A stretch of DNA of 386 bases from Escherichia coli (GTDB lineage Bacteria > Pseudomonadota > Gammaproteobacteria > Enterobacterales > Enterobacteriaceae): the NCBI RefSeq assembly GCF_003334765.1, contig NZ_QOWT01000127.1. One strand, written 5' to 3'. Positions 1 through 386 of the stretch are shown here, piece after piece. Made by a program: the position numbers and the translations under genes. Below the pieces are notes generated by a model that was not told where the DNA came from, did not search any database, and was given only the letters and a program-made list of their open reading frames with translations. Each line of letters opens with the position of its first letter. Within the stretch, counting starts at the first letter, position 1.

Positions 1-386
1 TATGCCGAATCGCTGAAAAAATTTCGTCATCCAGGGAACAAGATTGGCTGCATTGTGATGAACGCCAATCCCTTTACACAGGGTCACCGTTATCTGATTC
101 AACAGGCTGCGGCACAGTGCGACTGGCTGCATCTGTTTTTAGTTAAAGAAGATTCTTCACGCTTCCCCTATGAAGACCGGCTGGATCTGGTATTAAAAGG
201 CACCGCCGATATTCCACATCTGACTGTGCATCGCGGCTCCGAATACATCATCTCCCGTGCCACGTTCCCCTGCTACTTCATTAAAGAACAGAGCGTCATC
301 AACCATTGCTACACCGAAATTGATCTGAAGATTTTCCGTCAGTACCTCGCTCCCGCGCTGGGTGTAACTCACCGCTTTGTCGGTAC
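1..386 (+). CDS. citC: [Citrate (pro-3S)-lyase] ligase (citrate lyase synthetase), internal fragment; partial at both ends, frame 1, last complete codon 382-384
   Basis: Seen in sequence: frame 1 has no stop codon over 128 codons, whereas + frames 2 and 3 contain multiple TGA/TAA/TAG (e.g. 14-16, 56-58, 95-97, 140-142, 144-146, 171-173, 282-284). The reverse strand has stops in every frame, with the longest open stretch about 64 codons. The translation (…KIGCIVMNANPFTQGHRYLIQQAAAQCDWLHLFLVKEDSSRFPYEDRLDLVLKGTADIPHLTVHRGSEYIISRATFPCYFIKEQSVINHCYTEIDLKIFRQYLAPALGVTHRFVGT) matches my recollection of E. coli CitC over essentially its whole length, including the T-x-G-H motif and the conserved GVTHRFVGTEP region. 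Codon usage is typical of Enterobacteriaceae. The identification rests on recalled homology, not a database search. Confidence 0.86.
76..87 (+). other. citC: T-x-G-H nucleotide-binding signature (T-Q-G-H; codons aca cag ggt cac) of the cytidylyltransferase-like / citrate-lyase-ligase C-terminal domain
   Basis: Seen in sequence: codons 76-87 encode TQGH, directly preceded by a hydrophobic stretch then N-A-N-P-F (GCIVMNANPF). Established knowledge: the (H/T)xGH motif following a hydrophobic beta-strand is the ATP-binding signature of the nucleotidyltransferase alpha/beta phosphodiesterase superfamily, to which the CitC C-terminal domain belongs. Confidence 0.7.

What the first reader, a model, noticed from the sequence alone, without database searches (positions are those of the whole stretch)
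1..386. Inferred genomic context: citCDEFXG citrate-fermentation operon (not visible in the window)
In E. coli and relatives, citC is the first gene of the citCDEFXG operon (ligase, ACP gamma subunit, beta and alpha lyase subunits, CitX holo-ACP synthase, CitG triphosphoribosyl-dephospho-CoA synthase). It is divergently arranged from the citA/citB (dpiB/dpiA) two-component system and lies near the citT citrate/succinate antiporter gene. If that arrangement holds, sequence 3' of this window continues citC and then enters citD, and sequence 5' leads toward the citC start and the divergent regulatory region. This is context inference only.
Basis: established knowledge. Interest (0 to 1): 0.2.

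Follow-up and report, generated by a model that had tools for sequence, protein, structure and literature searches.

The report
Second, island-borne citrate lyase operon

Summary
The window is an in-frame internal piece (codons 132-259 of 351) of a [citrate (pro-3S)-lyase] ligase gene. That part of the finding holds. The inferred neighbourhood is only half right.

The exact sequence occurs in 13 of 5,426 complete E. coli genomes, always as a second citC. No native citC is more than 96.9% identical. In every context examined the gene sits third in a compact operon: COG3618 lactonase, MFS anion transporter, citCDEFXG, then a second acnB. A divergent GntR/HutC regulator with a conserved palindromic operator lies upstream, and IS elements flank the module. 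There is no dpiBA (citAB) and no citT. The same strains also keep the canonical locus.

The lactonase-transporter-citrate lyase(-AcnB) arrangement recurs in Enterobacter, Citrobacter, Klebsiella oxytoca and Salmonella salamae. Inside E. coli, the island's cit and acnB interiors are mosaics of native alleles with island-specific ends. This indicates repeated gene conversion from the core genes. The window is the one interior tract of this variant that matches no native allele.

Proposed function (inferred, untested): fermentation of a tricarboxylate lactone, most simply isocitrate lactone, via isocitrate, citrate, then oxaloacetate plus acetate. I found no description of this module in the searchable literature.

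The parts
1..386 (+). Internal coding segment (codons 132-259 of 351) of citC2, the [citrate (pro-3S)-lyase] ligase gene of the island-borne lactonase-MFS-citCDEFXG-acnB operon
   Evidence: Open frame +1. TIGR00124 E 1.7e-73. PF08218 E 1.4e-56. 100% identical to L001 15001-15386 inside the annotated citC at 14608-15663.
43..384 (+). Part of the citrate lyase ligase C-terminal (nucleotidyltransferase-type) domain
   Evidence: Pfam PF08218 matches window residues 15-128 to model positions 1-114 of 182. TIGR00125 cytidyltransferase-related domain matches residues 15-72.
76..87 (+). T-Q-G-H, the (T/H)xGH nucleotidyltransferase signature. Native E. coli CitC, island variant 2, and the Enterobacter, K. 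oxytoca and S. salamae module CitCs have T-N-G-H; the C. amalonaticus module CitC has T-L-G-H
   Evidence: Alignment of eight CitC proteins. Private nucleotide sites 78, 79 and 81. The motif's role is established knowledge of the nucleotidyltransferase superfamily and was not tested here.
217..219 (+). His codon (CitC2 residue 204) where native E. coli CitC has Arg. Second amino-acid change private to island variant 1
78..309 (+). Island-type tract: 11 sites (78, 79, 81, 127, 192, 218, 258, 261, 270, 300, 309) that differ from the two native alleles compared at these sites and from island variant 2. These make the window diagnostic of the variant-1 island copy
   Evidence: Only 13 genomes reach 99% identity or more, and all 13 are island copies. 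The nearest of five native alleles differs at 6 + 6 sites in alignment columns 451-750, against 0-3 per 150 nt elsewhere in the interior.

Best explanation
The window lies in citC2, the citrate-lyase ligase gene of an accessory module of about 11.4 kb found in roughly 0.6% of E. coli genomes. The module consists of a divergently transcribed GntR/HutC-family regulator and one tightly packed operon: COG3618 amidohydrolase-type lactonase, MFS organic-anion transporter, citC, citD, citE, citF, citX, citG, acnB.

Shown:
- The gene order, the tight spacing, the IS-flanked island locations, and coexistence with the canonical dpiBA-citCDEFXG-citT locus in the same genome.
- Conservation of the lactonase-transporter-citrate lyase(-AcnB, -oadGAB) arrangement in other Enterobacteriaceae.
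- A conserved palindrome, GTTGnATAnTCAAC, between the regulator and the lactonase.
- The island's cit and acnB genes encode proteins nearly identical to the core enzymes. Their interiors are mosaics of native E. coli alleles, while both ends of each block are island-specific.

Inferred:
- CitC2 does what CitC does. It acetylates the thiol of the phosphoribosyl-dephospho-CoA prosthetic group on the CitD acyl carrier protein, which switches citrate lyase on.
- The operon places citrate lyase and aconitase B under control of a GntR-sensed substrate instead of citrate and CitAB.
- The pathway is: uptake of a tricarboxylate lactone, ring opening by the lactonase, isomerisation by AcnB to citrate, then cleavage to oxaloacetate plus acetate. 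The simplest candidate substrate is isocitrate lactone; I put that specific assignment at about 0.4.
- The near-identity to the core genes results from recurrent gene conversion by the resident cit and acnB loci.
For: Identity and position of the window.

Exact matches are island copies only:
- 13 of 5,426 genomes match at 100%, each with two citC places; the best native match is 96.9%.
- Every exact match lies 394 bp from the GntR-lactonase-MFS block.
- All 24 contigs read that encode the identical CitC2 protein show the same neighbourhood.
- The exact window DNA is present in 7 of the 8 loci retrieved there.

Operon structure: repeated in a different island.

Same genome keeps the canonical locus.

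Protein families:
- Lactonase: PF04909. Best NCBIfam match is 4-sulfomuconolactone hydrolase, below its cut-off. AlphaFold model pLDDT 94.9. Nearest solved structures are 4I6K and 2FFI, then LigI, Atu3138 and 4DLF.
- AcnB: TIGR00117 at 1716 bits against a cut-off of 1287. Full CitC: 588 bits against 262.

Conservation of the module: Enterobacter, K. oxytoca, C. amalonaticus, S. salamae. The regulator-transporter-lactonase trio stands alone in Pseudomonas, Paraburkholderia and Intestinirhabdus. This argues that the product is a central metabolite.

Operator.

Gene conversion:
- The two island variants are 99.2-99.85% identical in GntR, lactonase and MFS, but 97.2-98.2% identical in cit and acnB.
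- Variant 2's window-equivalent segment is at least 99% identical to native citC in 2,692 genomes.
- Segment maps.
- GC content is 45% for the trio against 55.5-55.9% for cit and acnB.

Isocitric lactone is reported in human urine, plasma and gut metabolomes and in plant foods (titles listed).
Against: No expression, growth or enzyme data exist, so the substrate is a deduction from gene content.

The lactonase's nearest solved relatives have no established substrate.

The promoter and terminator scan was uninformative, with fewer sites than in shuffled sequence.

Some genomes carry decayed versions: a deletion in E400634 and a split or shortened MFS call in L032 and L027. Selection is therefore not universal.

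The window's own source genome is unknown. An unsampled lineage could carry this allele at the native locus.

The window tract matches neither native alleles nor other genera's module genes. Its origin is unexplained.
Confidence: 0.8

Rival explanations
1. One reading: the window comes from the canonical E. coli citCDEFXG operon, with citC as first gene, divergent from citA/citB (dpiB/dpiA), and citT downstream.
For: This arrangement is present in every native locus examined. Nearly all E. coli genomes have it (5,422 of 5,426 match citC).
Against: No native citC exceeds 96.9% identity to the window. All 13 exact matches, and all 24 contigs encoding the identical protein, are in the lactonase-MFS-cit-acnB context. 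The window carries 11 sites and 2 amino-acid changes absent from native alleles.
Confidence: 0.03
2. The island cit-acnB genes are a recent segmental duplication of E. coli's own genes pasted next to a foreign lactonase-MFS pair. They are not an old module overwritten by gene conversion.
For: Identity to native genes is 97-99% and GC content is native-like (55.5% against 45% for the trio). CitD and CitE proteins are identical to the native ones.
Against: The same gene order exists in Enterobacter at about 79% nucleotide identity across the whole module, including a 42-codon acnB remnant after citG, and in Citrobacter and Salmonella. The two E. coli variants share nearly identical trio genes and identical block ends, yet carry different native-like interiors: TR01-type against ATCC 11775-type. 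That requires at least one replacement after assembly. Homology starts at the citC start codon and ends a few codons before the citG stop. This is expected for conversion between homologous genes but not for a random duplication junction.
Confidence: 0.12
3. The module is catabolic, but the substrate is not isocitrate lactone. Alternatives include a hydroxycitrate lactone (hibiscus or garcinia acid), 2-pyrone-4,6-dicarboxylate, or another carboxylated lactone or ester that yields citrate, cis-aconitate or isocitrate.
For: The lactonase is annotated by similarity as a putative PDC hydrolase and is closest to enzymes of unknown substrate. In K. oxytoca and E. fergusonii the lactonase lies beside extra aconitase-family genes, PrpF and an Iso_dh-family enzyme, which hints at a wider range of tricarboxylate substrates.
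Against: In E. coli the only downstream enzymes are citrate lyase and AcnB, whose proteins are 97-100% identical to the housekeeping enzymes. The product must therefore be a normal substrate of those enzymes. True LigI is only 25-27% identical. In aerobes the trio stands alone, so no extra steps are needed.
Confidence: 0.35
4. The island copy is functionally redundant or decaying cargo of a pathogenicity-island-like region, with no distinct role.
For: It is IS-flanked. A truncated version exists in E400634. Two assemblies show split or shortened MFS calls. Only about 0.6% of E. coli genomes carry it.
Against: All nine operon genes and the regulator gene are intact in the 32 full-length copies, across two different island settings. 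The arrangement and the operator are conserved across genera. Intergenic spacing is tight: 5 nt between MFS and citC, and 25 nt between citG and acnB.
Confidence: 0.08

Closest known systems
Canonical E. coli citrate-fermentation locus: dpiBA (citAB) | citCDEFXG - citT
   Same: Same six cit genes in the same order. Nucleotide identity is 97.6-98.2% for variant 1, and up to 99.0% for variant 2, across citC-citG. CitD and CitE proteins are identical.
   Different: No two-component regulator and no CitT antiporter. citC is preceded by lactonase and MFS genes and followed by acnB. Regulation is by a divergent GntR/HutC protein. The location is an IS-flanked island rather than the dcuC-rna interval.
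Klebsiella/Salmonella-type citrate fermentation cluster (citS-oadGAB-citAB with citCDEFG); named from established knowledge, not tested here
   Same: Citrate lyase genes are linked to oxaloacetate decarboxylase (oadGAB) in the K. oxytoca, C. amalonaticus and S. salamae versions of the lactonase module.
   Different: In those loci all genes run in one direction behind a lactonase and a CitMHS transporter and sit next to acnB. The E. coli island has no oad genes and uses an MFS transporter. Its CitC is only about 55% identical to theirs.
COG3618 amidohydrolase-superfamily lactone enzymes (LigI, 4-sulfomuconolactone hydrolase, L-fucono-1,5-lactonase, Atu3138)
   Same: PF04909 fold. The HxH motif, a later His, and the Asp of the GSDWPH motif are conserved. 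TM-scores to these enzymes are 0.81-0.84.
   Different: Scores are far below every equivalog cut-off (137 against 500 bits; 24 against 400 bits). Identity to the characterised members is 17-27%. The genomic partners are citrate lyase and aconitase, not aromatic or sugar-acid pathways.
Concerted evolution of duplicated bacterial genes by gene conversion (for example tuf or rRNA operons); established knowledge
   Same: Interior tracts of the paralogue are replaced by the resident copy's allele, while the ends next to non-homologous flanks stay distinct.
   Different: Here the partners are a horizontally mobile island operon and two unlinked core loci (cit and acnB), and the donor allele changes with the host lineage.

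Membership tests
[citrate (pro-3S)-lyase] ligase, CitC (TIGR00124 / PF08218) | Full-length match to the equivalog model above its curated cut-off | tested here: met
   The full CDS containing the window scores 588.4 bits against a cut-off of 262.1. The window alone scores 247.5 bits because it is only 128 of 351 residues.
[citrate (pro-3S)-lyase] ligase, CitC (TIGR00124 / PF08218) | Nucleotidyltransferase (T/H)xGH signature in the C-terminal domain | tested here: met
   TQGH at window nt 76-87. The x position is Q instead of the N found in native E. coli CitC and in three of the four other module CitCs examined.
[citrate (pro-3S)-lyase] ligase, CitC (TIGR00124 / PF08218) | Genomic linkage to citD, citE and citF (the enzyme it activates) | tested here: met
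   citD starts 15 nt after the citC stop, and citE, citF, citX and citG follow.
[citrate (pro-3S)-lyase] ligase, CitC (TIGR00124 / PF08218) | ATP-dependent acetylation of the deacetyl-citrate lyase prosthetic-group thiol | not testable with these tools
   Requires an enzyme assay.
   An MFS gene ends 5 nt upstream of citC2. The divergent regulator is a GntR-family protein two genes further up. dpiBA is present only at the separate native locus.
   acnB follows citG after 25 nt.
   The lactonase (12424-13221) and MFS (13253-14602) genes precede citC (14608) on the same strand, with gaps of 31 and 5 nt. Co-transcription itself was not tested.
COG3618 lactonases of the amidohydrolase superfamily | Amidohydro_2 TIM-barrel fold with conserved HxH, His and Asp active-site residues | tested here: met
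   PF04909 E 1e-43. Invariant D4, H6, H8, H155 and D223 in 30 homologues. Model pLDDT 94.9, with TM 0.96 and 0.93 to 4I6K and 2FFI.
COG3618 lactonases of the amidohydrolase superfamily | Equivalog-level match to a member of known substrate (4-sulfomuconolactone hydrolase, L-fuconolactonase, LigI) | tested here: not met
   136.8 bits against a cut-off of 500; 24 bits against 400. LigI matches at E 4.5e-24 with 25-27% identity.
GntR/HutC-subfamily regulators | N-terminal GntR winged helix plus C-terminal UTRA effector domain, and a palindromic operator of GT...AC type | tested here: met
   PF00392 plus PF07702. Best NCBIfam matches are HutC-type models, all below their cut-offs. The conserved palindrome GTTGnATAnTCAAC is present in 7 loci. 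Binding was not tested.
Aconitate hydratase B (TIGR00117) | Full-length equivalog match above the cut-off | tested here: met
   1716 bits against a cut-off of 1287. There are 7-8 amino-acid differences from native AcnB.

The most novel reading that the evidence does not exclude
The module encodes a previously undescribed fermentation route for isocitrate lactone, or a closely related tricarboxylate lactone present in plant foods, gut contents and urine. Rare, often extraintestinal E. coli lineages carry it on IS-flanked islands. Ongoing gene conversion from the core cit and acnB loci keeps its citrate lyase and aconitase genes up to date, while the lactonase, transporter and GntR switch supply the new specificity and regulation.
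Probability: 0.35. Interest if true: 0.65.

Novelty: new variant of a known kind. Interest (0 to 1): 0.45.

Why it matters
For annotation: a short read or fragment labelled citC cannot be assumed to come from the citAB-controlled citrate-fermentation locus. This allele marks a different operon with different regulation.

For biology, three points.
- The module is a clear natural example of pathway building by re-using core genes. Citrate lyase and aconitase B are duplicated behind a new uptake and ring-opening front end, under a new regulator.
- It offers a testable candidate function for an orphan branch of the COG3618 lactonases, whose crystal structures (2FFI, 4I6K) have had no assigned substrate.
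- The mosaic pattern shows an island operon exchanging sequence with two unlinked core loci. That matters for how accessory-gene phylogenies and pangenome clustering are interpreted.

The carriers include ST38 and ST70 strains and urine isolates. In strain 746 the module sits in a region with a kps capsule cluster, Ag43 and malX, so a niche-nutrient role in gut or urinary colonisation is worth testing.

Tried and rejected
- Literature: eight full-text searches found no description of the module or of an isocitrate-lactone hydrolase. Terms covered isocitrate or isocitric lactone, hibiscus and garcinia acid, hydroxycitrate plus lactonase, citrate lyase plus lactonase plus aconitase, citCDEFXG plus acnB plus genomic island, RefSeq protein accessions, and citrate lyase plus amidohydrolase plus GntR plus acnB. 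One search was badly framed and returned only quorum-quenching and PON1 papers.
- Promoter and terminator consensus scan of the module: fewer hits than in shuffled sequence, so not informative.
- PADLOC scan of the lactonase, MFS and GntR proteins: no defence-system match.
- Plasmid carriage: no plasmid holds the island-type allele. Lactonase homologues on plasmids are all below 60% identical and sit on Burkholderiaceae or Ralstonia megaplasmids.
- Two synteny guesses for native loci missed their targets (L003, L016). The native cit locus of strain 21AR0173 was therefore never compared with its own island copy.
- The genome-collection scan with a single lactonase sequence returned only two loci, so no species-wide co-occurrence statistic could be computed.
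- I tested whether the two amino-acid changes in the window are ancestral module residues. They are not, because no other module CitC has them.
- Short antisense ORFs in the window (24-59 aa) were treated as mechanical by-products of a coding region.

Full report
**1. What the window is.** Frame +1 is open over all 386 bases, and the other two forward frames are full of stops. The ORF list shows only short ORFs on the minus strand, 24 to 59 aa. The 128-residue translation matches the NCBIfam equivalog for [citrate (pro-3S)-lyase] ligase (TIGR00124) at profile positions 127-254 of 335, with E 1.7e-73. It also matches Pfam PF08218, the citrate lyase ligase C-terminal domain, with E 1.4e-56. In the full gene it is codons 132-259 of 351.

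**2. Which citC it is.** I compared the window with 5,426 complete E. coli genomes.
- It is 100% identical in only 13 genomes, and each of those has two citC places.
- In the other 5,409 genomes the best identity is 96.9%.
- In strain 746 the exact match lies in an annotated citC at L001 14608-15663.
- That gene is preceded on the same strand by an amidohydrolase-family gene (12424-13221) and an MFS transporter gene (13253-14602).
- It is followed by citD, citE, citF, citX, citG and then an acnB gene (19865-22462).
- A GntR-family regulator is transcribed divergently (11576-12301).
- An ISEc38 transposase lies upstream and an IS66 remnant downstream.

The coordinates show that all 13 exact matches lie 394 bp from the GntR-amidohydrolase-MFS block. 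Looking up the exact CitC2 protein in public assemblies gave 146 index blocks. All 24 contigs read showed GntR, Amidohydro_2, MFS and CitC-D-E-F-X-G, with AcnB following wherever the retrieved flank or gene calls extended that far, and an ISL3 transposase upstream in most. The exact window DNA is present in 7 of the 8 loci returned.

**3. The canonical locus is elsewhere in the same genome.** Strain 746 also has dpiA, dpiB | citCDEFXG, citT between dcuC and rna.
- citD through citG downstream: correct.
- A citAB divergent region upstream: wrong.
- citT nearby: wrong.
- citC as first gene: wrong.

**4. The non-cit genes.**
- The amidohydrolase is PF04909 (E 1e-43).
- Its best NCBIfam models are 4-sulfomuconolactone hydrolase (137 bits, cut-off 500) and L-fucono-1,5-lactonase (24 bits, cut-off 400). 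It belongs to the lactone-acting COG3618 branch but to no characterised equivalog.
- An AlphaFold model built from 30 homologues is confident, with pLDDT 94.9 and pTM 0.93.
- The model superposes best on two structural-genomics proteins of unknown substrate: 4I6K (TM 0.96) and 2FFI (TM 0.93). Next come LigI, Atu3138 and a Burkholderia multivorans COG3618 amidohydrolase, 4DLF (TM 0.81-0.84). The decarboxylase branch is clearly further away (sequence-level result).
- D4, H6, H8, H155 and D223 are invariant in the family alignment.
- The transporter resembles organic-anion MFS carriers such as the PgtP and D-galactonate transporter subfamilies.
- The regulator has GntR and UTRA domains.
- The acnB copy passes the AcnB equivalog cut-off (1716 bits against 1287).

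**5. The module is conserved beyond E. coli.** Lactonase homologues of 57-76% identity occur in other Enterobacteriaceae. Their neighbourhoods are as follows.

| Organism | Arrangement |
|---|---|
| Enterobacter sp. | GntR(-) \| lactonase-MFS-citCDEFXG, then a 42-codon N-terminal remnant of acnB |
| Citrobacter amalonaticus | GntR(-) \| lactonase-CitMHS transporter-citCDEFXG-acnB-oadGA... |
| Salmonella enterica subsp. salamae | citX(-), GntR(-) \| lactonase-CitMHS-citCDEFG-acnB-oadGA... |
| Klebsiella oxytoca | acnB, GntR(-) \| lactonase-CitMHS-citCDEFG-oadGAB |
| E. fergusonii, Intestinirhabdus alba, Pseudomonas, Paraburkholderia | regulator, transporter and lactonase only |

The GntR-lactonase intergenic region carries a palindrome, GTTGnATAnTCAAC, that is conserved in all seven enteric loci aligned. 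It extends to the 26-bp palindrome AAGTTGCATAGTCAACTATACAACTT in E. coli.

**6. Functional inference.**
- The E. coli island's CitD and CitE proteins are identical to the native ones. CitF is 99.8% identical. CitC, CitX and CitG are 97-99% identical.
- AcnB2 differs from native AcnB at 7-8 of 865 residues.
- These enzymes should therefore keep their normal substrates: citrate for the lyase, and citrate, cis-aconitate and isocitrate for AcnB.
- A lactonase whose product feeds those two enzymes most simply makes isocitrate from isocitrate lactone. AcnB would convert isocitrate to citrate, and citrate lyase would give oxaloacetate plus acetate. The Klebsiella, Citrobacter and Salmonella versions add oxaloacetate decarboxylase.
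- In aerobes the trio stands alone. That fits a product that is already a central metabolite.
- Placing second copies of cit and acnB behind the lactonase puts them under the GntR regulator instead of the citrate- and anaerobiosis-dependent CitAB system. The role of CitAB is established knowledge for the native operon.
- Isocitric lactone is listed in human urine, plasma and gut metabolomics papers and in wine and aloe studies.
- All of this is inference. Nothing here tests substrate, expression or phenotype. I put the specific substrate assignment at about 0.4.

**7. Why the island copy looks so much like the native gene.** Across citC-citG the island aligns without gaps to native loci at 97.6-97.7% identity. 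Homology begins at the citC start codon region and ends a few codons before the citG stop, and the flanks are unrelated. A second island variant, in strain 21AR0173, lies in a different island setting with different IS elements. Per-gene identity between the two variants is as follows.

| Gene | Variant 1 vs variant 2 identity |
|---|---|
| GntR | 99.2% |
| Lactonase | 99.5% |
| MFS | 99.85% |
| citC, citE, citF, citX, citG | 97.3-98.2% |
| acnB | 97.2% |

Segment-by-segment comparison with five native alleles gave this picture.
- Variant 2's interior has 0 differences per 150 nt from O157:H7 TR01-type alleles over most of its length.
- Variant 1's interior has 0-3 differences per 150 nt from its nearest native allele, most often the ATCC 11775-type.
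- The first and last 150 nt of the block are shared by both variants and differ from every native allele: 7-8 and 11-12 differences respectively, against 1-2 between the variants.

Variant 2's window-equivalent segment is at least 99% identical to native citC in 2,692 genomes, and 100% identical to a single-copy native gene. acnB2 shows the same pattern of island-specific ends around a mosaic interior. GC content is 45% in the trio and 55.5-55.9% in cit and acnB. Because the same gene order exists in Enterobacter at about 79% identity, the best reading is an old module whose cit and acnB interiors have repeatedly been overwritten by the resident core genes. A one-off recent duplication is less likely, but recombination-aware phylogenetics has not excluded it.

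**8. What is special about the window itself.** In variant 1 the only interior stretch that matches no native allele is alignment columns 451-750, with 6 + 6 differences to the nearest native. Those columns lie within the window's span. The window has 11 private sites and two private amino-acid changes. One is N to Q at the x position of the TxGH nucleotidyltransferase motif. The other is R to H at residue 204. Neither is shared with module CitCs of other genera. The origin of this tract is unexplained. It could come from an unsampled donor, or it could be a surviving piece of an older island allele.

**9. Distribution and decay.**
- The full GntR-lactonase-MFS block is present in 32 of 5,426 complete E. 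coli genomes.
- Hosts and sources include humans (including urine), dog, gull, mink, poultry, seawater and wastewater.
- In strain 746 the module sits in a large mosaic region with a kps capsule cluster, Ag43, CbtA/YeeU toxin-antitoxin genes and malX.
- Strain E400634 has a deletion that leaves only a truncated citF, citX, citG and acnB2.
- Two assemblies show split or shortened MFS calls.
- No plasmid in PLSDB carries the island-type allele.

**10. Novelty and verdict.** Eight full-text searches found no description of the module. The library is incomplete, so prior description cannot be excluded.
- The gene family is known, and the window is an ordinary member of it.
- The operon is a new variant of the citrate-lyase system: a different front end, a different regulator, an added aconitase, an island location, and concerted evolution with the core genes.
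- Interest is moderate (0.45). The result corrects a plausible but wrong context inference and yields a concrete, testable pathway hypothesis, but the function remains unproven.

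Noticed in passing
L007 1-8965 (K. oxytoca); L009 13009-20795 (E. fergusonii): Next to the lactonase module lies a second cluster. It holds two aconitase-family genes (about 645 and 754 aa), a PrpF-family isomerase, an Iso_dh-family dehydrogenase and, in E. fergusonii, a LysR regulator, a PF10282 beta-propeller lactonase and a second CitMHS transporter. It looks like another pathway for tricarboxylates or lactones of unknown substrate.
   Followed up: no
L026 8993-14598 (E. 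coli E400634): A decayed island. A deletion joins a JAB-domain gene directly to a truncated citF, removing GntR, the lactonase, MFS and citC-citE but keeping citX, citG and acnB2. E500002 and B-JRPT-4119 may be similar: they have an island-type acnB2 but are not among the 32 genomes with the lactonase block.
   Followed up: partly
L006 9092-9217; L005 17447-17572 (Enterobacter sp.): A 42-codon N-terminal remnant of acnB (83% amino-acid identity to AcnB2) lies directly after citG. The Enterobacter version of the module therefore once carried acnB and lost it.
   Followed up: yes
L032 4728-5995; L027 4727-5995: In two assemblies the MFS transporter gene is called as a shortened or split ORF (348 + 73 aa, or 422 aa, instead of 449 aa). 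This may be a frameshift, a start-site miscall or an assembly error.
   Followed up: no
L001 12323-12348; alignment A1 columns 34-48: A 26-bp palindrome, AAGTTGCATAGTCAACTATACAACTT, lies between the GntR and lactonase genes. Its core, GTTGnATAnTCAAC, is conserved in seven loci from six genera and is duplicated in the CitMHS-type loci. It is probably the GntR operator.
   Followed up: partly
L001 25606-27017 and L023 (strain 746, record 862-928 kb): The island region also carries a second agaR, fragments of a class II aldolase gene, malX, a MalY/PatB gene, a kps group-2 capsule cluster, Ag43, and CbtA/YeeU toxin-antitoxin genes. This resembles a pathogenicity island. The tRNA insertion site was not identified.
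   Followed up: partly
PLSDB records NZ_CP141089.1, NZ_CP134663.1, NZ_OL790696.1: Three records of 4.8-4.9 Mb filed as E. coli plasmids carry native-type citC. They are almost certainly chromosomes mislabelled as plasmids.
   Followed up: no
L024 12648-13994 (Intestinirhabdus alba): The stand-alone GntR-lactonase-MFS trio is followed by a LuxR-type regulator and an acyl-homoserine-lactone synthase gene. This is probably coincidental, but it does place a lactone-producing system beside a lactonase.
   Followed up: no
window 193-372, minus strand: A 59-aa GTG-started ORF lies antisense to citC. It has no support beyond being open and was treated as a by-product of the coding strand.
   Followed up: no
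L015 16924-19521 (S. salamae module acnB): The Salmonella module's AcnB is 94.5% identical in protein to E. coli AcnB2, while its CitC is only about 55% identical to E. coli CitC. The acnB copy in that module may also have been homogenised by its host's core acnB.
   Followed up: no
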